From the UHGV virus genome UHGV-0177389: a stretch of 29,218 bases of DNA; one strand, given 5' to 3'. The notes beneath the pieces are model-generated. The model saw nothing but the letters and a program-made list of their open reading frames with translations, was not told the origin of the DNA and did not search any database. The DNA is from a virus. Shown here in pieces: positions 3,301-28,525 of this stretch (position 1 is the stretch's first letter; every line of letters starts with the position of its first letter). The translations under genes were made by a program, and so were the position numbers.

Positions 3301-3375
3301 AGTTTGTTCCGGCAAAACATTACCTGACGGGATCAGTCCGTTATTAAGATCTTCAGCTTGTGCATAAACTGGCAT
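361..3375 (-). CDS. large internal virion / DNA-ejection protein (1004 aa), T7 gp16-like by position
   Basis: ORF track; ATG at 3375 overlaps the stop of the upstream gene; last and largest gene of the tail/core module; Gly/Ala-rich segments. Confidence 0.55.
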   Translation of the reverse strand: MPVYAQAEDLNNGLIPSGNVLPEQTGFDVALPEGANPEPLPPEPSVWGAAMRQNNILAGFFRPARQFEPVEGYNPYADKNELHGYEYWGAKFADSRSPEETAWIKQQIDDENEDRRLLSDAGVVGTLASIAAGMDPVTVASMFIPGAQGGALARIGSQIAIGAAGTALSEVVLNNQQITRSWGESAAHIAAGAMMSGVFASAGVALSPSVRAAATREVADALDNMSITSATDRAAASLSDGGSVGAMKIDTATLDDLTPVSGGVVGKAAWKAGSYLTPLTRLMESPSKTVRKTTLELAENNFTLKGNERGIETPVAVETRTRGWQREEAAVVVGNKQAYAKYKADGGDMSFDSFRQQVGNAMRSGDVHANPVVQETAQAMRTVLNRVKVEMQKLGLLPPDEELKALGQASYFPRIYKVGKIISERDKFRRILVDWWSRGNKTLDPEDAEIAADIVINKITGAKVPQDFVSVFSVKAAGSTKERTLNVPDSLIRDYLESDVNYVLQRHIREAAAEIELTRTFGKRTMTERLQLIEDEYDSLLREVPEKIKAKYDESVANLKARYESNGEVVPQGKLDSLMRKYEKELRKEQSRLSKSRANDLRDITALRDRLVGTYGMPDDPSSFFVRAGAFLRDVNFTTKLGGMTVSAIPDLARGVMVNGFRNSMKGYASQISQSPAFKASKEEMLKMGIGLETVLHSRSRAIGDLVDSSSRTTAVEAGMERITDAFGKLTLMDRFNDINKSMNGMLTSDGILSGAFSARRMAKLGINDNMAARIRSEFEKHGEVIDGWHIGNFDKWDDQYVAGVFQSAVLKDVNNTIITPGIGDTPLWASTPMGRTIFQFKSFTTASYNRALLGGLQEGTAQFYYGTAFQIALGSLVYALKEASKGKNVDWSPEKLVLEGIDRSGILGPLMEYNNMAEKATGGAVGLGALFGTGTQSRYASRGFVGSLFGPSFGLADSIIDVTAGVLNGDAGDRIVHNVRTLIPGNNLFWIAPLINQVDPVMR

Positions 3376-6092
3376 TATTTAGATCCCCACGAAAAGTAAT
3401 CTTTAAATTTGTCCATACGTTCGTTATGCAGGCGCTGATACTGCTCATCCAGAGCGCGATGCTTGTCTTTGAAGTTTCGTATAGCCTGTCCACGCATAAT
3501 TTCTTCCTGCTCGTACTGCTCCCGTTCCTGCTGCATTTTCTTATAAGGTTCCCAATCTTCTAGTGATGGTTCCCAACGCATAGGACGCCCATGTTTGTTA
3601 TAAAACGGCTGGACCCGATCGATGCCATTTTCATCCTTAGTTCTTACCATAATGGCGTAATCACCATTACGAGGTGTTAACACGTCAGGGGTTATGAATA
3701 ATTCTCCATTAATACGACTCTCAGGGGTTTTTGTCTCAACTACAGGAGCATTACCTGACGTGATCCCAAGCAACGTCGGACTGGTTGTTATAATCTCTTT
3801 GCGCTCACCGTACATCAGCCGTTCTTTTTCAGCTTTCCACTGCGCCGCCTGCCAGCCTGACGGCCCATATTGATAAAGCGCCTCCGGTGCATATTTCATA
3901 AACTGCGCTTCTCCGTTAACCTCGCTGATACTCCAGGTGCGGGCTATCTGCTGGTTGGTCATTTGCTTCGCTACGTCAGCGTTACCACCAGCAACGCGGT
4001 AGTTAATGTCATACAGCGTCTGATAGTCATTACGGAATCTAGCTGCTTCCGGCGTCTGGTCATCCGCAGACGGATCCCAACGGAACCACTGCGCCATATT
4101 GCTGACAGCAGAATTCATCGCCTTGCTGCGATTATTTTTGTACTCTTTTGAACTCTGCGTTGATGCCAATTGAGCTTTAAGAGCATCGGTCTGGTTGTAC
4201 GTCAGGTTCTGCGCCTGCTCGATAGCCGCATCAGCAGACATGCCAGAATCTGTTAGTTGCTTAACAGTCAGATAAAAACCCTGCATATCCTTCGGCATAT
4301 TTCCAATAGATGCATTGTCTGTTTCATATAACCGACTAAACAAATTCGCTGCATTTTTAACCACTTCCTGATTGCTGGATCTGGATACTGCTGAAAGCTG
4401 CGTGATGACCTGCGAAGGCATGATGCCAGTCTGAGCCACAAGCCGAACAACCCCATCATGAGTGGAGGCATCATTAATACGAAAGTTCTGCGCCATTTCT
4501 GTGTAATCAGCAGCTTTCTGCATTGATTTGTTGCTTGGGTCTAATTTTTCACCTATTGTCAGCGCCTCATTGAATCTGCGTGAATCACGTTGCGCCTGAA
4601 TTGCTTCATTTGATCGCTGAAGCAATGCAGACAATTTTCCGTAAGCATCGAGTTTTAACGCATAGTGAGGATCGTTAACCTCAGGCTTCACTTTCTGCAT
4701 TTCTTCTTGCTGCTGAGAAGGAGGTAAATACTGAATTGCCTGGAATATTCTCGCGTTATCAATCGCTATATCCAGTTGATTGATTATTTTATCTGCATTT
4801 TTTCCATACCCCCTGATGATAGTCTCCTGAGCCGGTATATAATCTGGAACCTCACCGTTATATAGCTGGGCCATGGTGTTATTAATAGCTGGCTCAAGCT
4901 GTTCTAATATTAACTTCCTTTGCTTTTCTATCTGACTATTAGCAAGGTTATCTATTTGATAAATAGTCAGCGGATCCATTCCAGTTTTATTTTTTCTATA
5001 TCGGGAAAGCCACCCTTGTGTTTCTGATGGAAGATTTCGGATAAATTCTTCTTCTGATATTTCACCTTTACGTGGATCACCGACTTTGGCGATCAGTTTA
5101 TCCACGTTACCCATCCCCCAGTTATATGCTGCTCCGGTCAATATTTCGGAGCCGTACTTACCATACAGTTGATTTACATAGTCACTGGCGAGCATTTCAT
5201 GCTGTTGTTCGTCCGTAGGGTTGTATTTAACGCCACGCTTGGCCGCCAGTTCTTTCCCTGTGCCCGGCATTAACTGGTATTTCCCCTGGGCTCTCTCTCC
5301 AGAAGATGTTATCGGTCCTTCAAGAAGACTACCATCAGGATTAAAATGTCGATCACCTGATTCAACAAGGCGTATGGCACGCATGTCCATGCCTCCAGAA
5401 TCATTTTTCTGAAACAGACCATTTAGCCATCCTTCTGGATTGGCAGCGGCATAATTCTTCGCCCGCATTTCTGTGGCACGGCGATCATCACTTTCTATTT
5501 CTTCCAGAATGCGTTCTTGTGACCATCCCCTGGCAGCTCCATATCTGGCAATGGCTACCATTCTGGAATTTCTGGCTAAAGTGGCAGTTTGCGGGTCATT
5601 CCAGGCATCCGCTTCATTTTGTATCCATAATTTTCTCGTTGCCTGATATTGCTCATCTTCATAGGCATTTGTCTGCCCTATCTCATGTCTGAGAACTCCA
5701 GTACTGAACTGAATTTTCTGTGTTCTGGCTTGTTGCAAAAACATATTTCTTGCTGCTTCATCAGTCAATGAAGCAGCTATTTCTTCCACATCCTGATCAA
5801 ATCCAGATATGTACTCTTGCCCCTTACCAATCGCATTTTTGCCTTGTTGTGCATAAAAACCGGTTTGAGGGTTATAAAGACGTTCATTGCTGCGCTGATT
5901 AAGCTGAAGGATGGCATCCTGAGACAATGCAACATTCGCTTTCTGCCTGGCTTCACCATATGCCACCGCATACTGATCTGCGACATTCGCCAGCACCTGA
6001 CCTGCTTGAGGAACATCGAAGGTCTGAAAACCACCGGTTTGCACACCACGACTTTGCACCTGGCGTCCGGATACTGTTGGTACGACTGGCAT
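3375..6092 (-). CDS. internal virion protein with soluble lytic transglycosylase (SLT) domain
   Basis: ORF track 3375..6167 trimmed to ATG at 6092, which has GGAGGA 5 nt upstream and overlaps the upstream stop; SLT-like motifs ES...GKYQLM...AAYNWG. Confidence 0.7.
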   Translation of the reverse strand: MPVVPTVSGRQVQSRGVQTGGFQTFDVPQAGQVLANVADQYAVAYGEARQKANVALSQDAILQLNQRSNERLYNPQTGFYAQQGKNAIGKGQEYISGFDQDVEEIAASLTDEAARNMFLQQARTQKIQFSTGVLRHEIGQTNAYEDEQYQATRKLWIQNEADAWNDPQTATLARNSRMVAIARYGAARGWSQERILEEIESDDRRATEMRAKNYAAANPEGWLNGLFQKNDSGGMDMRAIRLVESGDRHFNPDGSLLEGPITSSGERAQGKYQLMPGTGKELAAKRGVKYNPTDEQQHEMLASDYVNQLYGKYGSEILTGAAYNWGMGNVDKLIAKVGDPRKGEISEEEFIRNLPSETQGWLSRYRKNKTGMDPLTIYQIDNLANSQIEKQRKLILEQLEPAINNTMAQLYNGEVPDYIPAQETIIRGYGKNADKIINQLDIAIDNARIFQAIQYLPPSQQQEEMQKVKPEVNDPHYALKLDAYGKLSALLQRSNEAIQAQRDSRRFNEALTIGEKLDPSNKSMQKAADYTEMAQNFRINDASTHDGVVRLVAQTGIMPSQVITQLSAVSRSSNQEVVKNAANLFSRLYETDNASIGNMPKDMQGFYLTVKQLTDSGMSADAAIEQAQNLTYNQTDALKAQLASTQSSKEYKNNRSKAMNSAVSNMAQWFRWDPSADDQTPEAARFRNDYQTLYDINYRVAGGNADVAKQMTNQQIARTWSISEVNGEAQFMKYAPEALYQYGPSGWQAAQWKAEKERLMYGERKEIITTSPTLLGITSGNAPVVETKTPESRINGELFITPDVLTPRNGDYAIMVRTKDENGIDRVQPFYNKHGRPMRWEPSLEDWEPYKKMQQEREQYEQEEIMRGQAIRNFKDKHRALDEQYQRLHNERMDKFKDYFSWGSK

Positions 6093-6637
6093 TATAATCC
6101 TCCGGGTAATCTGGTTCCTGCTGCTGCCCCGATTGGCGCAGGGGTGCTTTGAGTAAACGGACTCCACGTCCCACCAAACATCTGGTACGCACCGTATGCC
6201 TTCAGAGGCGCAGTGAGCAATGTTGTTGCTGATCCCACATTCCCCTGTTTACGGGCTGAACTGGCTTCTGCTTTATAGTTGGCAGCCTGAACCTGATAAC
6301 CGTAAGCCTCGCGTTGCGCGTTATTCACCGTCGTCAGAGAATCAAGAGCGCCAAACTGGGCAGTGTCGCCAAATATATCCAGCGCGTTACCTGTAGATAA
6401 ATCAGCGCCGGTAGCCCCCATTGTCGCCGCCTGTGTACCAAGCCGCTGTCGGGTCTCTCTGCGCCGTTGCTCAGCTTCAGCGTTACCTCTGTTTATTGCA
6501 TCATTTGCCTGAGCAGTGGCTATATCTGCGTTCGCTTCTGCAACCTTCGAGGCATACTTTCCCTGTTGGTACTGGGTGTATGCCTGAATGCCACTCATGG
6601 CGAGCATTGCGCCACCAGCAATAACCGGATCGCACAT
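6092..6637 (-). CDS. internal core protein (181 aa), T7 gp14-like by position
   Basis: ORF track; ATG overlaps upstream stop; GGAGAG upstream; Ala/Gln-rich small protein between tail and large core genes. Confidence 0.45.
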   Translation of the reverse strand: MCDPVIAGGAMLAMSGIQAYTQYQQGKYASKVAEANADIATAQANDAINRGNAEAEQRRRETRQRLGTQAATMGATGADLSTGNALDIFGDTAQFGALDSLTTVNNAQREAYGYQVQAANYKAEASSARKQGNVGSATTLLTAPLKAYGAYQMFGGTWSPFTQSTPAPIGAAAGTRLPGGL

Positions 6638-15346: not shown

Positions 15347-15383
15347 TTGACATTTAATGCACGAATTATTACCCTTCAGGTAA
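15347..15383 (+). promoter_or_regulatory. TTGACA -35-like hexamer followed by a perfect TTACC-N5-GGTAA operator-type palindrome (15369-15383)
   Basis: Seen in sequence; the palindrome matches the immunity-region operators; strand of the promoter is uncertain. Confidence 0.35.
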
Positions 15384-15705
15384 GTAAATAGTTCATTCCG
15401 GTTATTAACCTGACTGGCTTGTCGTTAAATTGAACAGGTGGAGTGAGCTTTTATTTTGAGCAGTACGGCGTATGGCACATGCGCCGATAGCGGTCTGGAT
15501 ACGTTTAAGGGGCACCCTCCCTTGCTCGGGCAAACGAACCAGGTAGCCGGAATGTGCAAGTCGAGCGGTTTTATTCCGCGCACGGGGATTCACCATCCCG
15601 GCGATTCGGTGTGACGCCTCGGAAGAGACGAGGGTGCAACGATGAGAGCATTTATGGAGCCGCGACAAAGTGTGGCGCCTTAACAGGCTAAGTGCTCTCA
15701 GCGTT

Positions 15706-18513: not shown

Positions 18514-18557
18514 CATAACCACCGTGGTAATAGTTACCGTTGTGGTAATAGTACCAT

Positions 18558-22403: not shown

Positions 22404-22406
22404 GAT

Positions 22407-22483
22407 TTACCCCTTAGGTAATTAAAAACCACATAAGACATGAAATCAATAGAGATTAGAACATTTTATTACCTTCCAGGTAA
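22407..22483 (-). promoter_or_regulatory. internal promoter flanked by two TTACC-N5-GGTAA operators
   Basis: Minus strand reads operator (22469-22483), 19 nt, -35 TTGATT (22444-22449), 17 nt, -10 TTTAAT (22421-22426), operator (22407-22421), AAGGGG RBS, ATG at 22403. Confidence 0.5.
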
Positions 22484-22496
22484 TCATATAGACGTA

Positions 22497-24133: not shown

Positions 24134-24334
24134 TCAGCTTGAATGTTGTGGGGAGGAATTAATCATGATCTGCTTAATCTCTGCCCTGATACGACGGTTT
24201 GATTCCATGGTGCACTCAACACAGTGTCCGTTGTAAACCCAGCGTTCACTGTCATGTCCGTGCTTACATGTTTTTCCGGTGTAGTAGCGTTTAAGTCCGC
24301 GCTTTGCGGCATCAATACGTGTAATGATTTCCAT
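24134..24334 (-). CDS. small putative zinc-binding protein (66 aa) at the cII position
   Basis: ORF track 24134..24397 (TTG start) trimmed to ATG at 24334; motif CKHGH...CVEC; stop overlaps region just upstream of the O-like start. Confidence 0.4.
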   Translation of the reverse strand: MEIITRIDAAKRGLKRYYTGKTCKHGHDSERWVYNGHCVECTMESNRRIRAEIKQIMINSSPQHSS

Positions 24335-24414
24335 GGTAAGCCCTGTTATTAGTATTGGGATTACGGTCATTTTGTGCTGACACAAAAAAAATATCAACCA
24401 TATTTGGTTTTTTA

Positions 24415-24429
24415 TTACCTTTGAGGTAC
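24415..24429. promoter_or_regulatory. imperfect operator-like site TTACC-TTTGA-GGTAC with downstream -35-like TTGATA
   Basis: Seen in sequence; on the minus strand reads site, 18 nt, TTGATA, 17 nt, CAAAAT (weak -10). Confidence 0.3.
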
Positions 24430-24440
24430 GAATAGATATG

Positions 24441-24751: not shown

Positions 24752-24814
24752 TCACCCATAAGGTAACAAAAATCAAGGATAGTTACCCATGAGGTGCATT
24801 TACCTGTTGGGTAA
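24752..24814. promoter_or_regulatory. right operator region: three TTACC-N5-GGTAA-type sites plus cro-like promoter
   Basis: Sites at 24752-24766 (TCACC-CATAA-GGTAA), 24783-24797 (TTACC-CATGA-GGTGC) and 24800-24814 (perfect); minus-strand -35 TTGATT (24771-24776) and -10 GAATAT (24748-24753), 17-nt spacer. Confidence 0.55.
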
Positions 24815-24869
24815 TATTGCTTTAAATTGAATCATCTACTGATTCATATATGAGGCGATTTTCCAGAAA

Positions 24870-25454
24870 ATGAAAAGTATCCAGGACGTCCGCAGGCAAA
24901 ATCTCAACGACTTGATCGACCGTGAATTCAATGGTGTTCAGACGCGGATGGCTGAAAAACTTGGAACTCAGGCAAATCTGGTAAACCGCTGGGCTCTTGG
25001 TAAGAAGGTTATCGGCGATCAGGTTGCGCGAAAAATTGAAGCTGCCGCCAATAAACCCCGTAACTGGCTTGATATCGATCGCTCGCTTTCTCAGGAAGGT
25101 TTTCAGCCTGTCGGCCCAAGCGACATTGGCCAGCTGGCGGCTCACAACCTGGAACGCTGGATGAGCGAAAGCCGCGACCTTTCAACACAGGGAAAACTTC
25201 ACCGCGCATCCGGCGTAGCCCAGGTGACAATCAGCCGCCTGTTAAACAATGAGGTCAGCGTTTCCATTTCCACCCTGGAGAATGTTGCATCCGCATTCGG
25301 GCGTCACGGCTATGAATTACTGATTCACCCGCACGACCCTGCGACCATCAACTATGATCGCTCGCGCTACGCATTGTTACCCGAAACCGAGAAAGCAAAG
25401 ATCGAAAGTTACATTGAATTTGTCATCAACCAGAACGAAAAAAACAAACAATAA
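24870..25454 (+). CDS. prophage repressor (194 aa) with two predicted HTH segments and no recognisable S24 peptidase domain
   Basis: ORF track; HTH-like TRMAEKLGTQANLVNRW and ASGVAQVTISRLLNNE; divergent from the cro-like gene; operators on both sides. Confidence 0.6.
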   Translation: MKSIQDVRRQNLNDLIDREFNGVQTRMAEKLGTQANLVNRWALGKKVIGDQVARKIEAAANKPRNWLDIDRSLSQEGFQPVGPSDIGQLAAHNLERWMSESRDLSTQGKLHRASGVAQVTISRLLNNEVSVSISTLENVASAFGRHGYELLIHPHDPATINYDRSRYALLPETEKAKIESYIEFVINQNEKNKQ

Positions 25455-25475
25455 AACCATATTTTTCAGTAAGTA

Positions 25476-25499
25476 AGCCGCCTTATGGCGGCTTTTTTA
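25476..25499 (+). terminator. intrinsic terminator after the repressor gene
   Basis: 7-bp stem AGCCGCC/GGCGGCT with 4-nt loop followed by TTTTTTA, 22 nt after the stop. Confidence 0.65.
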
Positions 25500-25511
25500 T
25501 TGCCTATTCGA

Positions 25512-25588
25512 TTACCTAACGGGTAATTTTTTTAACTCATATCTATTGACATCAAACCATATACGCATAATTATTACCTCAACGGTAA
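25512..25588 (+). promoter_or_regulatory. left operator region: two perfect TTACC-N5-GGTAA sites flanking a promoter
   Basis: Sites at 25512-25526 and 25574-25588; -35 TTGACA at 25546-25551; -10-like AATTAT about 17 nt downstream; precedes the plus-strand early operon. Confidence 0.55.
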
Positions 25589-25607
25589 CAGACCGAGGTA
25601 ACAAGTT

Positions 25608-25760
25608 ATGCAGTGGAAAATCATCAACGGTTGGTACTGCGTTACTGCATGCGGATTCATGAGCTGGAAGTTCCGCACCTTACAGGAAGGCATTAAGTGG
25701 GCTTTCGTCAGCAAAGAAGCTCGCGATGTGGCCAACGATAACGAGATATGGGAGGGCTGA
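25608..25760 (+). CDS. small Trp/Cys-containing protein (50 aa), first ORF after the left promoter
   Basis: Manual translation MQWKIINGWYCVTACGFMSWKFRTLQEGIKWAFVSKEARDVANDNEIWEG; GAGGTAAC upstream of ATG; below the ORF-track size cut-off. Confidence 0.35.
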   Translation: MQWKIINGWYCVTACGFMSWKFRTLQEGIKWAFVSKEARDVANDNEIWEG

Positions 25761-25762
25761 TA

Positions 25763-26062
25763 ATGAACGTTAATCAGCAGAAAAATCTTCAAAAAATCAT
25801 GCTGGCATTCGACAAGGACTACCGTCTGTCAGAACAGCTATATGACCGACAAGTTGAACTGATTGAGAGTATCCGGCTTCATCAACTGGCATCAACTTTC
25901 GACGTTGTAACAGTTAAAGGCGTTCGCCAGGAAGTACTGGAGGCTGCTAAAGACAGCCCTGAGTTCGAAGAACTGATGGATGCCTATCGGCGAGAGGCAA
26001 TGGCAATTATCGCCCGCTGGGATCTGGCGGATCAGCTTGATGGACAGAGGGACGCGGCATGA
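25763..26062 (+). CDS. hypothetical protein (99 aa)
   Basis: ORF track 25748..26062 trimmed to ATG at 25763 with GGAGGG 6 nt upstream; ATGA overlap with the next gene. Confidence 0.45.
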   Translation: MNVNQQKNLQKIMLAFDKDYRLSEQLYDRQVELIESIRLHQLASTFDVVTVKGVRQEVLEAAKDSPEFEELMDAYRREAMAIIARWDLADQLDGQRDAA

Positions 26063-26880
26063 AACCGGGAATTTATTTCGACATCAGCAACGAAGACTAC
26101 CACGCCGGTGACGGCGTGAGTAAGTCGCAACTGGACATGGTTGCCAAGAATCCGGCGCTTCTTAAATGGGTTCAGGCAGCACCAGAAGACGAAGAGAAAA
26201 AGTCTGCACTGGATATGGGAACCGCATTGCACTGTCTGCTTCTGGAGCCTGGAGAGTTCGACAAACGCTTCATTGTTTCACCGAAATTCGATCGTCGGAC
26301 GAAACAAGGTAAAGCTGACGAAGAGGAATTTCTTCGTGATGTGGCGGATATGGGGATTACGGTACTTGATGCCGAGCAGTGGCGGAAACTGGAGCTGATG
26401 CGTGATAGCGCAATGGCTCACCCGGCGGCACGCTGGATGCTGGAAGCACCTGGTTACTGCGAAGCATCAATGTACTGGAACGATGAAGAGACGGGGGAGT
26501 TGTGCCGAATTCGTCCAGACAAATGGCTGAACGAGCACAACGTGATCGTCGACGTGAAAAAGGTTGCAGATATGGACCGTTTTGCACGCCACATCGAGGA
26601 ATTCCGCTACCACGTGCAGGACGCAATGTACCGCGAAGGCGCAATGAGGGTTACTGGTCAGCCGCATGGTTTTTTCTTTCTTGCCGTGAGCGAAAGCATT
26701 GATTGTGGTCGGTATCCGGTACGCGTGTTCGAGCTGGATGCGCAGGATGTCGATGCCGGGCACGCTCTGTTCCGCCGGGATCTGAATACCTATCACGAAT
26801 GCCGCATCAATGATGAATGGGGCGGTGTGGAAATCATTAAACGCCCTGAGTGGGCACGCAAACAGGATATGTACATATGA
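26059..26880 (+). CDS. RecE-type PD-(D/E)xK exonuclease (273 aa), probable
   Basis: ORF track; candidate motifs VDVKK and QDAMYREG (QxxxY); immediately upstream of and overlapping the RecT-like gene. Confidence 0.55.
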   Translation: MKPGIYFDISNEDYHAGDGVSKSQLDMVAKNPALLKWVQAAPEDEEKKSALDMGTALHCLLLEPGEFDKRFIVSPKFDRRTKQGKADEEEFLRDVADMGITVLDAEQWRKLELMRDSAMAHPAARWMLEAPGYCEASMYWNDEETGELCRIRPDKWLNEHNVIVDVKKVADMDRFARHIEEFRYHVQDAMYREGAMRVTGQPHGFFFLAVSESIDCGRYPVRVFELDAQDVDAGHALFRRDLNTYHECRINDEWGGVEIIKRPEWARKQDMYI

Positions 26881-27818
26881 GCAACGACATCGCAAACATC
26901 AACGCACCAGTAGACACAGCAATCGCTGGAACTGCTGCAACTATTTTCAGCCCAGACGGCTTGAACCAACTGATGAAATTCGCCGAGGTAATGGCGCAAA
27001 GCCGCGTAACGGTACCGGCGCACCTCGCCGGGAAACCAGCTGATTGCATGGCCGTGGCAATGCAGGCTGCGCAGTGGGGAATGAACCCGTTTGCCGTGGC
27101 TCAGAAAACCCATGTTGTGAACGGCACGCTAGGTTATGAAGCCCAATTAGTAAACGCAGTTATCTCAACGATGTCGCCAACAAAAGATCGCATCAACTAC
27201 GAGTGGTTCGGGCCGTGGGAACGCGTGATCGGTAAGTTTGTTGAGAAAACATCCAAAAACGGCAATCCATATATCGCACCAGGCTGGACTCTAAAAGACG
27301 AAGAAGGCTGCGGTGTTCGCGTATGGGCAACCATGAAGGGCGAGGATCAACCTCGAGTGCTTGAGTTAATGCTGTCTCAAGCACAGGTAAGAAACTCCAC
27401 ACTTTGGGCCAGTGATCCGAAACAACAACTCGCATACCTTGCGACAAAACGCTGGTCTCGCCTGCACTGTCCTGACGTAATCATGGGCGTCTACACCCCA
27501 GACGAATTACAGGAAACGGCACCGCGCGTTGAGCGAGACATTACTCCGCAAACGACCACTGCTGCGGGAATGAACAGTCTGATCAACGCTAAACCAGCGA
27601 AAAAGCCTGATGAGCAAACGCGTAAATCGGACAGCCGTGATCCAGAAGAAATGCTGATGGCCTTTACCAGCGCAGCGATGAATTACAGCACTGTCTCCGA
27701 ACTGGATAAGGCTTACAAATACATTGCACAAAAACTTTCAGATGATGACGAACTGCTGGCAAAAGCCACCGACGTTTACAGCGTTCGTCGGGAAGAATTA
27801 AACGAAACATCTATGTAA
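26877..27818 (+). CDS. RecT/Red-beta family single-strand annealing protein, probable
   Basis: ORF track 26850..27818 trimmed to ATG at 26877 (ATGA overlap with the exonuclease stop); segment AQWGMNPF resembles recalled lambda Bet QYGLNPW. Confidence 0.6.
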   Translation: MSNDIANINAPVDTAIAGTAATIFSPDGLNQLMKFAEVMAQSRVTVPAHLAGKPADCMAVAMQAAQWGMNPFAVAQKTHVVNGTLGYEAQLVNAVISTMSPTKDRINYEWFGPWERVIGKFVEKTSKNGNPYIAPGWTLKDEEGCGVRVWATMKGEDQPRVLELMLSQAQVRNSTLWASDPKQQLAYLATKRWSRLHCPDVIMGVYTPDELQETAPRVERDITPQTTTAAGMNSLINAKPAKKPDEQTRKSDSRDPEEMLMAFTSAAMNYSTVSELDKAYKYIAQKLSDDDELLAKATDVYSVRREELNETSM

Positions 27819-27867: not shown

Positions 27868-28116
27868 ATGAAAGGTGCATTAGGTAAGAAGGAACTCCTG
27901 GCGGTGGTTCCACTGTCATGGAGCACTATCGACCGTATGGAGCGCGCAGGGGAATTTCCTAAACGCTGGTATATCACCGATAAACGCTGCGCATGGAACC
28001 GTGATGAAGTTGAGCGTTGGCTTGATGAACGTCAGGCAGCAAGCCCGGCAGAGTTCCAGGGTAAAAAACCTCCTGTTCAGCAACGTGTATATCGTCCCGT
28101 GAGCAACGCGGCATGA
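27868..28116 (+). CDS. AlpA-family HTH regulator / excisionase-like protein (82 aa)
   Basis: ORF track; AGAGAGG RBS; segment LSWSTIDRMERAGEFPK...WNRDEVERWL fits the recalled AlpA pattern. Confidence 0.6.
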   Translation: MKGALGKKELLAVVPLSWSTIDRMERAGEFPKRWYITDKRCAWNRDEVERWLDERQAASPAEFQGKKPPVQQRVYRPVSNAA

Positions 28117-28225
28117 GTGTGCTGCTAAGGCACTGGAGCAAATGGTCAGGATGGTACTTATTCCTGGCCTCTGTTTCAGCATGGCTTTATCTGCTGGCAT
28201 TAATTTTCAGAGAGGGTTGGATTAA

Positions 28226-28525
28226 GTGAGAAAGTTAAGCCGACTTGAAAAATATCACATGAACAAGGTTTCAATGCGCAGTCCGTCAAAGATTGTCGCC
28301 GTTACTCCTGCGGCGATAGAGATCGAAAAACGCGCGATTGAAAGAGAGAAAAAAGGGCAGTTCCGCATTGCCGCTCACCTTTGGCTTCAGTGTATGGATG
28401 TTGCTTCTGGTGATGTTGAGCGTGCAAGGATCGCGGTTCGCAGGGACCAATGTATCACAAAAGGTAACGGCCTTCGCCGTGGCGACTATAGCGGCATAGG
28501 ATGTTGTGGGGTGGTTTATGACTAA
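28226..28525 (+). CDS. ANR-family-like small regulator (99 aa), tentative
   Basis: ORF track (GTG start with GAGGG 9 nt upstream); segment FRIAAHLWLQCMDVA...RARIAVRRDQC resembles the recalled ANR pattern. Confidence 0.4.
   Translation: MRKLSRLEKYHMNKVSMRSPSKIVAVTPAAIEIEKRAIEREKKGQFRIAAHLWLQCMDVASGDVERARIAVRRDQCITKGNGLRRGDYSGIGCCGVVYD

What the first reader, a model, noticed from the sequence alone, without database searches (positions are those of the whole stretch)
25608..26062. Two small unknown ORFs are the first genes transcribed from the left promoter
Promoter-proximal early-left positions in lambdoid phages usually encode host-takeover, anti-restriction or anti-recombination functions. 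The 50-aa Trp/Cys-containing ORF and the 99-aa ORF have good RBSs but no family I can recognise.
Basis: inference. Interest (0 to 1): 0.45.

Follow-up and report, generated by a model that had tools for sequence, protein, structure and literature searches.

The report
Gam-like gene plus orphan peptide gene
The first two genes of the early-left operon of this phiV10/epsilon15-type E. coli prophage are real and conserved: the 99-residue one is a previously unrecognised distant relative of phage lambda's Gam (an inhibitor of the host nuclease RecBCD) sitting in front of the phage recombination genes, and the 50-residue one is a highly conserved small protein whose job remains unknown.

Summary
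The window is a phiV10/epsilon15-like (Uetakevirus) prophage. After the repressor gene come a terminator, a TTGACA-17-AATTAT promoter flanked by two repressor-operator-like sites, then ORF50 (25608-25760) and ORF99 (25763-26062). ORF99 overlaps a RecE-type exonuclease gene by ATGA, and that gene overlaps recT the same way.

Both ORFs are catalogued families of unknown function (phrog_898, phrog_856) and match nothing in Pfam. They occur together in all 36 phage records that carry either one, and the region is in 563 of 5426 complete E. coli genomes.

ORF99 is most likely a divergent Gam-like nuclease inhibitor:
- Lambda Gam is the top hit of its family profile against all PDB sequences (E 0.09).
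- Profile-profile comparison with Gam gives 67-81% probability; none of 300 shuffles reached the observed score.
- One family member hits Pfam Gam (E 0.004).
- Length, acidity, all-helical prediction and position directly upstream of the recombination genes match GamS.
- This position holds across two phage backbones and two unrelated exonuclease types.

Formal Pfam membership is not met and activity is untested.

ORF50 has no detectable relative. In one lambdoid relative a KilR homologue occupies its position (kil-gam-exo-recT), which suggests a host-directed peptide but does not show it.

Verdict: a new member of a known kind plus one orphan gene, of moderate interest.

The parts
24870..25454 (+). 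Prophage repressor gene with two HTH domains (same as phiV10 p40). Context only: it ends just before the left promoter.
   Evidence: Pfam HTH_3 and phrog_8. phiV10 annotation. The identical protein of phage ZX5 blocks lytic growth when over-expressed (PMC9782041).
25475..25494 (+). Intrinsic terminator hairpin (8 bp, 6 GC) followed by TTTTATT. It separates repressor transcription from the left operon.
   Evidence: Annotated as a terminator in phiV10.
25511..25527 (.). Operator-like inverted repeat ATTACCTAACGGGTAAT, upstream of the -35 hexamer.
   Evidence: 0 mismatches; 10 sites in the window against 0.76 expected. The same motif is annotated as a repressor-binding site in epsilon15.
25546..25574 (+). 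Putative early-left promoter: TTGACA, 17 nt, AATTAT.
   Evidence: 10 of 12. The layout is conserved in relatives L006, L009, L010 and in epsilon15. The transcription start was not measured.
25573..25589 (.). Operator-like inverted repeat ATTACCTCAACGGTAAC, overlapping the -10 hexamer and the expected transcription start.
25608..25760 (+). ORF50 (same as phiV10 p39, epsilon15 gp37, phrog_898). A 50-aa protein with a near-invariant N-terminal 25 residues and a variable tail. Function unknown.
25763..26062 (+). ORF99 (same as phiV10 p38, epsilon15 gp36, phrog_856). An acidic, all-helical 99-aa protein, a distant relative of lambda Gam and a putative RecBCD/host-nuclease inhibitor. Its stop overlaps the exonuclease start (ATGA).
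26059..26880 (+). RecE-type PD-(D/E)XK exonuclease (DUF3799, phrog_412 exonuclease VIII).
26877..27818 (+). RecT single-strand annealing protein. Its ATG overlaps the exonuclease stop (ATGA).

Best explanation
When the repressor is lost, RNA polymerase starts at the operator-flanked promoter at 25546-25574 and transcribes one translationally linked block: ORF50, ORF99, exonuclease, RecT.

ORF99 is a divergent Gam-like protein. By analogy with lambda GamS it would be a small acidic helical dimer that occupies the DNA-end binding site of RecBCD. That would protect the linear or rolling-circle phage DNA and leave ends to the phage's own exonuclease/RecT pair.

ORF50 is a separate, very strongly constrained small protein made first from the same transcript. 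Its most likely role is to bind a conserved host target, in the way Kil-type peptides encoded at this position in other phages do. This is not shown.

Shown here: the gene structure, conservation and coding status, the operon layout, and the statistical similarity of the ORF99 family to Gam.
Inferred: homology to Gam implies the same fold and target.
Untested: dimerisation, RecBCD binding, any activity of ORF50, and the transcription start.
For: Operon layout.

Coding status: dN/dS; frame integrity against the antisense frame; PHROG families.

Similarity of ORF99 to Gam:
- An unbiased hmmsearch of the ORF99 family profile against 177,635 PDB sequences puts lambda Gam (5mbv, 2uuz) first, at E 0.09 over ORF99 29-87 and GamS 31-90. 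The next hits are near E 1 and unrelated.
- hhalign against an alignment of 95 Gam homologues gives probability 80.9%, E 1.2e-5, score 33.7. With a differently composed 24-sequence alignment it gives 66.8% in the same register.
- None of 150 column shuffles (mean 11.5, max 23.5) and none of 150 seven-column block shuffles (mean 15.9, max 26.1) reach 33.7. The reversed alignment scores 16.6.
- Among 32 small early-left proteins of lambda, P22 and Rac, only Gam stands out (13% against 1% or less).
- One family member hits Pfam Gam PF06064 at E 0.0042, the best Pfam hit of any member, and phrog_259 'gam-like' at E 0.016. That member is probably P0086, which scores 22 bits against a local Gam HMM.
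- The Gam HMM ranks ORF99-family ORFs directly after Gam itself among 1703 ORF segments from these loci.

Shared properties: 99 aa against 98 aa for GamS; collinear global alignment; a shared Pro at the helix break; pI 4.5-5.2 against 5.0; an all-helical AlphaFold model.

Context:
- ORF99 is always directly upstream of the recombination module. That module carries a DUF3799 exonuclease, a YqaJ exonuclease or RecT directly, in two different phage backbones.
- This mirrors lambda kil-gam-bet-exo.
- There is no canonical Gam elsewhere in the window.

Gam mechanism: PMC5218532.
Against: - The window protein itself does not hit Pfam Gam, even at E up to 10.
- Its individual score against a Gam HMM is weak (8.5 bits, E 0.22 among 1703 segments).
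- The shallow alignment A1 gives only 11.8%.
- The confidently aligned part is the C-terminal two-thirds. The N-terminal helix, which in Gam plugs the RecB channel, shows no clear similarity.
- The AlphaFold model is of low confidence (pLDDT 65.7), and Foldseek found no match in the PDB or BFVD. There is therefore no structural confirmation.
- The Gam alignment used was shallow (71% identity or more to lambda Gam).
- For ORF50 there is no positive functional evidence at all. The model was useless (pLDDT 53.8) and there was no profile hit.
Confidence: 0.55

Rival explanations
1. ORF99 shares ancestry or fold with Gam but does not inhibit RecBCD. It could be an accessory of the phage recombination module, for example a cofactor or chaperone of the exonuclease/RecT pair in the manner of P22 Arf. 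Or it could block another end-processing or defence nuclease such as SbcCD.
For: Its strict adjacency and ATGA coupling to the exonuclease or RecT gene fit any module-associated role. The N-terminal helix that gives Gam its RecB-channel plug is not conserved.
Against: It is kept with two unrelated exonuclease families (DUF3799 and YqaJ), and in one case directly before RecT. That argues against a specific exonuclease partner. Acidity and size match a DNA-mimic inhibitor. No similarity to Arf, Abc1 or Abc2 was found.
Confidence: 0.2
2. The similarity to Gam is a coincidence between two short acidic helical proteins. ORF99 does something unrelated, such as regulation or anti-defence against another system.
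For: Single-sequence and Pfam-level scores are below significance. No structural match was found. Helical proteins give inflated profile scores.
Against: Shuffles that keep composition and local helical blocks never reach the observed score (0 of 300). The same register is found by hmmsearch, by hhalign with two alignments, and by Pfam. The match is to the one protein expected at this operon position.
Confidence: 0.13
3. ORF50 is a Kil-type inhibitor of host cell division (or a similar host-takeover peptide), made first on induction. It is functionally analogous to lambda Kil or Rac KilR but unrelated in sequence.
For: - Lambda has kil directly upstream of gam.
- In a lambdoid relative (L177) a KilR homologue (PF27398) sits directly upstream of the ORF99 homologue, and ORF50 is absent.
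- Its size (50 aa) is close to lambda Kil (47 aa).
- The N-terminal 25 residues are nearly invariant across genera, whereas the neighbouring genes are 40-55% identical. That fits a conserved host target.
Against: There is no sequence or profile similarity to lambda Kil, P22 Kil or KilR (probability 0.3% or less). Positional analogy is weak evidence. A 320-344-aa gene is often inserted between ORF50 and ORF99, so the pair is not a tight unit.
Confidence: 0.25
4. ORF50 is not a protein gene. The conserved sequence would be an RNA or DNA element, or the real gene would be the minus-strand ORF annotated in phage Tyrion.
For: Tyrion RefSeq annotates a 70-aa minus-strand CDS here and omits ORF50. 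The antisense frame shares wobble positions with ORF50, so dN/dS alone cannot separate the two.
Against: The sense ORF is always 49-50 codons with ATG and a GAGG-type Shine-Dalgarno sequence. The antisense frame ranges from 22 to 203 codons stop-to-stop, uses TTG or GTG starts and has no Shine-Dalgarno sequence. Third-position changes are saturated while amino acids are kept. Orientation matches the promoter and the operon.
Confidence: 0.03

Closest known systems
Lambda Gam (GamS; Pfam PF06064, phrog_259; PDB 2UUZ, 5MBV)
   Same: About 98-99 aa, acidic (pI about 5) and all-helical. Encoded in the repressor-controlled early-left operon directly upstream of the phage annealing-protein and exonuclease genes. 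Profile-level similarity over about 57 columns, including the motif [VP]EF[QE]E..M.....R......IA.
   Different: Below Pfam thresholds. Classed as a separate PHROG of unknown function. The N-terminal helix is not recognisably similar. Partnered with RecE-type or YqaJ-type exonuclease plus RecT rather than Red-beta/Exo. No long GamL form. Activity untested.
phiV10 p38/p39 and epsilon15 gp36/gp37 (hypothetical proteins)
   Same: These are orthologues: ORF99 is 98% identical to its phiV10 counterpart and ORF50 is 100% identical. The epsilon15 proteins are 50% and 79% identical. Position and order are the same.
   Different: None of substance. Those records give no function, even where HHpred notes were added for the neighbouring genes.
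Lambda Kil, Rac KilR (PF27398) and P22 Kil, small FtsZ-directed peptides of early-left operons
   Same: ORF50 has the size and the operon position (just upstream of the Gam-like gene) that kil has in lambda and that a KilR homologue has in locus L177.
   Different: No detectable sequence relationship. No evidence of toxicity or of a division block.
P22 Abc2/Abc1 and other phage RecBCD modulators
   Same: Small proteins encoded next to the phage recombinase that deal with RecBCD (PMC9836394 abstract).
   Different: No similarity to ORF99 (1% or less). Abc genes lie downstream of erf, not upstream of an exonuclease.

Membership tests
Lambda Gam family (Pfam PF06064 / phrog_259) | Match to the curated family HMM at or above its threshold | tested here: not met
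   The window ORF99 has no Pfam hit, even at E up to 10. One of 14 family members hits PF06064 at E 0.0042. phrog_259 hits one member at E 0.016.
Lambda Gam family (Pfam PF06064 / phrog_259) | Remote (profile-level) homology to Gam | tested here: met
   Top PDB hit, E 0.09. hhalign 80.9% and 66.8%. None of 300 shuffles reaches the score. One family member, P0086, scores 22 bits against a local Gam HMM. ORF99-family ORFs rank directly after Gam among 1703 segments.
Lambda Gam family (Pfam PF06064 / phrog_259) | Small (about 98 aa), acidic, all-alpha protein | tested here: met
   99 aa, net charge -6, pI 4.7; all family members have pI 4.5-5.2; GamS has pI 5.0. The AlphaFold model is all-helical but of low confidence.
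Lambda Gam family (Pfam PF06064 / phrog_259) | Fold superposes on the GamS structure | tested here: inconclusive
   Foldseek of the pLDDT-65.7 model gave no hits at all in the PDB or BFVD. The model is too uncertain to count for or against.
Lambda Gam family (Pfam PF06064 / phrog_259) | Homodimer whose N-terminal helix enters the RecB 3'-ssDNA channel, with an acidic surface that mimics duplex DNA (PMC5218532) | not testable with these tools
   No multimer prediction was available. The N-terminal 30 residues align to Gam only in global mode, without confidence.
Lambda Gam family (Pfam PF06064 / phrog_259) | Gene in the early-left operon directly upstream of the annealing-protein/exonuclease genes | tested here: met
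   Window; lambda; 14 related loci.
Lambda Gam family (Pfam PF06064 / phrog_259) | Inhibits RecBCD nuclease | not testable with these tools
   Needs biochemistry or genetics.
Kil-type division inhibitors (lambda Kil, KilR PF27398), considered for ORF50 | Sequence or profile similarity | tested here: not met
   hhalign probability 0.3% or less against lambda Kil, P22 Kil and KilR. No Pfam hit.
Kil-type division inhibitors (lambda Kil, KilR PF27398), considered for ORF50 | Blocks FtsZ ring or cell division when expressed | not testable with these tools
   Only positional analogy is available.
Lambda CIII (FtsH inhibitor), considered for ORF50 | Sequence or profile similarity to CIII/C3 | tested here: not met
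   hhalign 0.5% and 0.3%. No Pfam hit at E up to 10.
DUF1391 / YdaF (Rac early-left small protein), considered for ORF50 | Sequence or profile similarity | tested here: not met
   hhalign probability 0.2%. An apparent motif resemblance seen by eye was not supported.
P22 Abc2 anti-RecBCD, considered for ORF99 | Sequence or profile similarity | tested here: not met
   hhalign 0.8%.

The most novel reading that the evidence does not exclude
ORF50 is a new kind of host-directed micro-protein. It is the first product made on induction of a prophage family carried by about one in ten sequenced E. coli. Its 25-residue invariant core (MQWK.ING.Y.VT.CGLMSWKF) would hit a conserved enterobacterial target by a mechanism unrelated to Kil, CIII, Ral or any known anti-defence protein. 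It might act together with the Gam-like protein.
Probability: 0.3. Interest if true: 0.6.

Novelty: new member of a known kind. Interest (0 to 1): 0.38.

Why it matters
RecBCD inhibitors decide whether linear phage DNA survives. They are used in recombineering, they potentiate quinolones (PMC5218532), and they are the trigger sensed by several defence systems (for example the Gabija and OLD preprints listed).

If phrog_856 is a Gam-like family, a 'hypothetical protein' present in about 10% of complete E. coli genomes and in Salmonella, Klebsiella and Enterobacter Uetakevirus prophages gains a testable function. It would also show that Gam-type inhibitors travel with RecE/YqaJ-RecT modules, not only with lambda Red. 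And it would offer a natural 'gam-exo-recT' cassette for recombineering.

ORF50 is a well-defined, very conserved orphan at the most promoter-proximal position, which makes it a good candidate for a simple expression screen.

Tried and rejected
- Pfam, NCBIfam, PADLOC and PHROGs at default thresholds gave only the two unknown-function PHROGs.
- AlphaFold2 of ORF99 (pLDDT 65.7) with Foldseek against the PDB and BFVD gave zero hits. AlphaFold2 of ORF50 gave pLDDT 53.8 and was not searched further.
- An exhaustive HMMER search with the ORF99 profile against 1.84 billion representatives found only 32 proteins, all of the same small family. No annotated relative was reached that way.
- ORF50 looked by eye like Rac YdaF/DUF1391 (S..F[KR]T......W) and like the lambda CIII N-terminus (MQ[YW].I..GW). 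hhalign rejected both.
- ORF50's CxxxC as a metal or disulfide motif was rejected, because a divergent homologue has Leu at the first Cys.
- ORF99 as a split-off N-terminal part of long RecE was rejected: no similarity to the 866-aa Rac RecE.
- No similarity was found between either ORF and RacC, YdaE, KilR, YdaG, RcbA, RalR, Ral, N, Ea10, Arf, Abc1, Abc2, gene 17 or other early-left proteins.
- A first attempt at search for related loci with the most diverse alignment failed for lack of a conserved stretch.
- Scans of viral contigs returned only near-identical loci and added nothing on context.
- Literature searches for the accession numbers and for Uetakevirus plus Gam found nothing relevant.
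- The SPC32H repressor/operator papers are not in the library.

Full report
**What the window is.** The region 25400-26200 is 100% identical to Escherichia phage EC.W1-9 and 98.3% identical to phiV10 (genus Uetakevirus, epsilon15-like podoviruses). The same stretch is present in 563 of 5426 complete E. coli genomes, almost always on the chromosome, so it is a common prophage. In phiV10 the two ORFs are p39 and p38, said to be 'similar to epsilon15 gp37 and gp36'. Both are hypothetical.

**Anatomy.** All features below are on the + strand.
- A two-HTH repressor gene lies at 24870-25454. The identical protein of phage ZX5 blocks lytic growth when over-expressed (PMC9782041).
- An intrinsic terminator follows at 25475-25494 plus a T-run.
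- The promoter-like site TTGACA-17-AATTAT lies at 25546-25574.
- ORF50 runs from 25608 to 25760, with GAGG 8 nt before the ATG.
- ORF99 runs from 25763 to 26062, with GGGAGGG 6 nt before the ATG and 2 nt after the ORF50 stop.
- A RecE-type PD-(D/E)XK exonuclease gene (26059-26880) overlaps ORF99 by ATGA.
- recT (26877-27818) overlaps the exonuclease gene by ATGA.
- Then come AlpA-like, PerC-like and Dam-like genes.

The promoter is bracketed by two copies of the inverted repeat ATTACC-N5-GGTAAT, at 25511-25527 and 25573-25589. The motif occurs 10 times in the window against 0.76 expected, and another copy lies in the divergent cro-side promoter region. In epsilon15 the same motif at the same positions is annotated as repressor-binding sites. 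The transcription start itself is inferred, not measured.

**Are they genes?** Yes.
- Both match PHROG families over their full length: phrog_898 at E 2e-38 and phrog_856 at E 6e-55. Both families have unknown function.
- Homologues occur in Escherichia, Salmonella, Klebsiella, Citrobacter, Enterobacter, Kluyvera, Erwinia and Scandinavium.
- dN/dS is 0.01-0.2 for ORF50 codons 1-25 and 0.1-0.4 for ORF99, with synonymous sites saturated.
- One caveat was checked. The antisense frame over ORF50 shares wobble positions, and phage Tyrion's record annotates a minus-strand CDS there. In nine diverse loci, however, the sense ORF is always 49-50 codons with ATG and a Shine-Dalgarno sequence. The antisense frame is interrupted or of very variable length, with TTG or GTG starts.
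- In the phage collection the two genes occur in exactly the same 36 records.

**What ORF99 is.** Standard libraries give nothing. An exhaustive HMMER search finds only 32 representatives, all about 100 aa. Using those to build a diverse alignment (A3) opened a lead.
- Among 32 small early-left proteins of lambda, P22 and Rac compared by hhalign, only lambda Gam stood out (13% against 1% or less).
- The unbiased test agrees. The A3 profile searched against all 177,635 distinct PDB sequences returns lambda Gam (5MBV, 2UUZ) as the top hit, at E 0.09, covering ORF99 29-87 and GamS 31-90. The next hits are near E 1 and unrelated.
- Against an alignment of 95 Gam homologues, hhalign gives probability 80.9%, E 1.2e-5 and score 33.7. 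An independently composed 24-sequence family alignment gives 66.8% in the same register.
- None of 150 column shuffles and none of 150 seven-column block shuffles of the Gam alignment reach that score (maxima 23.5 and 26.1). The reversed alignment scores 16.6.
- One family member hits Pfam Gam at E 0.0042, the best Pfam hit of any member, and phrog_259 'gam-like host nuclease inhibitor' at E 0.016. That member is probably P0086, which is 45% identical to the window protein and scores 22 bits against a local Gam HMM.
- That Gam HMM, run over 1703 ORF segments from the window and 20 loci, ranks ORF99-family ORFs right after Gam itself.
- The two proteins have the same length (99 against 98 aa for GamS). 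They align collinearly end to end, share a Pro at the helix break, and are similarly acidic.
- The AlphaFold model is all-helical but of low confidence, and Foldseek returned nothing. Structure therefore neither confirms nor contradicts the link.

**Context supports a role tied to the recombination module.** In every locus examined, the ORF99 homologue sits immediately upstream of the recombination genes, usually with an overlapping stop and start.
- The exonuclease is the RecE/DUF3799 type in the window, phiV10 and several metagenomic relatives.
- It is the unrelated YqaJ/lambda-Exo type in epsilon15, a Klebsiella pneumoniae prophage, an Erwinia prophage and L179.
- In the most divergent member, a RecT gene follows directly.
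- One homologue (P0089, locus L177) lies in a different, lambdoid backbone with an S24-type CI repressor, YdaS/YdaT, Rep_O and lambda-P. There ORF50 is absent, and a KilR homologue sits directly upstream, giving kilR, ORF99-like, exo, recT. This reproduces lambda's kil-gam-bet-exo order.
- No canonical Gam is found elsewhere in the window.

**Mechanism proposed for ORF99.** By analogy with GamS, it would be a dimer whose acidic surface mimics duplex DNA and whose N-terminal helix fills the RecB 3'-tail channel (PMC5218532). ORF99 would then block RecBCD at DNA ends, protecting phage DNA and leaving ends to the phage exonuclease and RecT. The homology is statistically supported but remote. The N-terminal helix is the least similar part. 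Formal Pfam membership is not met, and nothing about binding or activity could be tested. I put Gam-type homology at about 0.65-0.7 and RecBCD inhibition at about 0.55.

**ORF50.** The N-terminal 25 residues (MQWKIINGWYCVTACG[FL]MSWKFRTL) are almost invariant across genera, whereas the neighbouring genes are only 40-55% identical. The tail is variable.
- A divergent homologue shows that the first Cys is dispensable, so there is no CxxxC requirement.
- No relative was found in Pfam, PHROGs other than its own family, the PDB or PADLOC, or among 32 early-left proteins.
- The model was unusable.
- It is separable from ORF99. A 320-344-aa gene of unknown function (phrog_1376) or an acidic 101-aa gene (phrog_7311) is often inserted between them.
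- The only functional hint is positional. A kil-type gene occupies the equivalent slot in lambda and in L177. I rate a Kil-like or other host-directed role at about 0.25-0.3 and otherwise leave it open.

**Verdict.** The 99-aa gene is best read as a new, divergent member of the Gam kind of host-nuclease inhibitor, so far annotated everywhere as hypothetical. The 50-aa gene is a genuine, strongly constrained orphan. Interest is moderate: nothing here is categorically new, but there are two cheap and decisive experiments, a RecBCD-inhibition test for ORF99 and an expression phenotype for ORF50.

Noticed in passing
L010 (Enterobacter phage Tyrion, NC_031077) 3405-3617, minus strand; equivalent to window 25574-25792, minus strand: Tyrion's record annotates a 70-aa minus-strand CDS over the ORF50 region and omits ORF50. 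The antisense frame shares wobble positions with ORF50 but is not conserved as an ORF in 9 loci, so this is probably a strand miscall.
   Followed up: yes
window 26859-26861 (A-run about 20 nt before the exonuclease stop); L001 (phiV10) 4660-6420: phiV10's annotated 586-aa 'RecE-RecT fusion' differs from the window by a single extra A in this run. The window and most relatives have separate exonuclease and recT genes with an ATGA overlap. The fusion is either a real frameshift variant or a sequencing error.
   Followed up: partly
window 22406-22422, 22468-22484, 18515-18531, 18533-18549, 24799-24815, 24414-24430, 15368-15384, 6094-6110: Further copies of the operator-like motif ATTACC-N5-GGTAAT, including two pairs outside the immunity region (near the replication genes and near 18.5 kb). 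They suggest additional repressor-controlled promoters, for example for an antirepressor.
   Followed up: no
L009 3659-4693; L014 3980-4993; L176 264-1244; L178 4034-4993; L180 1603-2628; L007 4699-5004: The junction between ORF50 and ORF99 is an insertion hot spot. Many relatives carry a 320-344-aa gene (phrog_1376; unknown function, no Pfam or PADLOC hit). One carries a very acidic 101-aa gene (phrog_7311). These are candidates for accessory or anti-defence functions.
   Followed up: partly
L010 3954-4091: Tyrion has an extra 45-aa ORF between the ORF99 homologue and the exonuclease gene, so the ATGA coupling of ORF99 to the exonuclease is not universal.
   Followed up: no
L008 (epsilon15) 3330-3500: The epsilon15, Klebsiella and Scandinavium versions of the left control region carry an extra leader of about 60 nt, with a hairpin and a third operator directly before the gp37 Shine-Dalgarno sequence. 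The window version lacks this. It may be an additional layer of control of ORF50 expression.
   Followed up: partly
window 24134-24397, minus strand: Downstream of the cro-like gene lies an 87-aa ORF with a Cys/His-rich segment (KTCKHGHDSERWVYNGHCVEC), a possible zinc-binding protein. It corresponds to phiV10 p42 / epsilon15 gp40, both hypothetical.
   Followed up: no
window 28113-28229: A 38-aa ORF with one predicted transmembrane helix lies between the AlpA-like and PerC-like genes. It is conserved in relatives and annotated 'membrane protein' in phiV10 and epsilon15.
   Followed up: no
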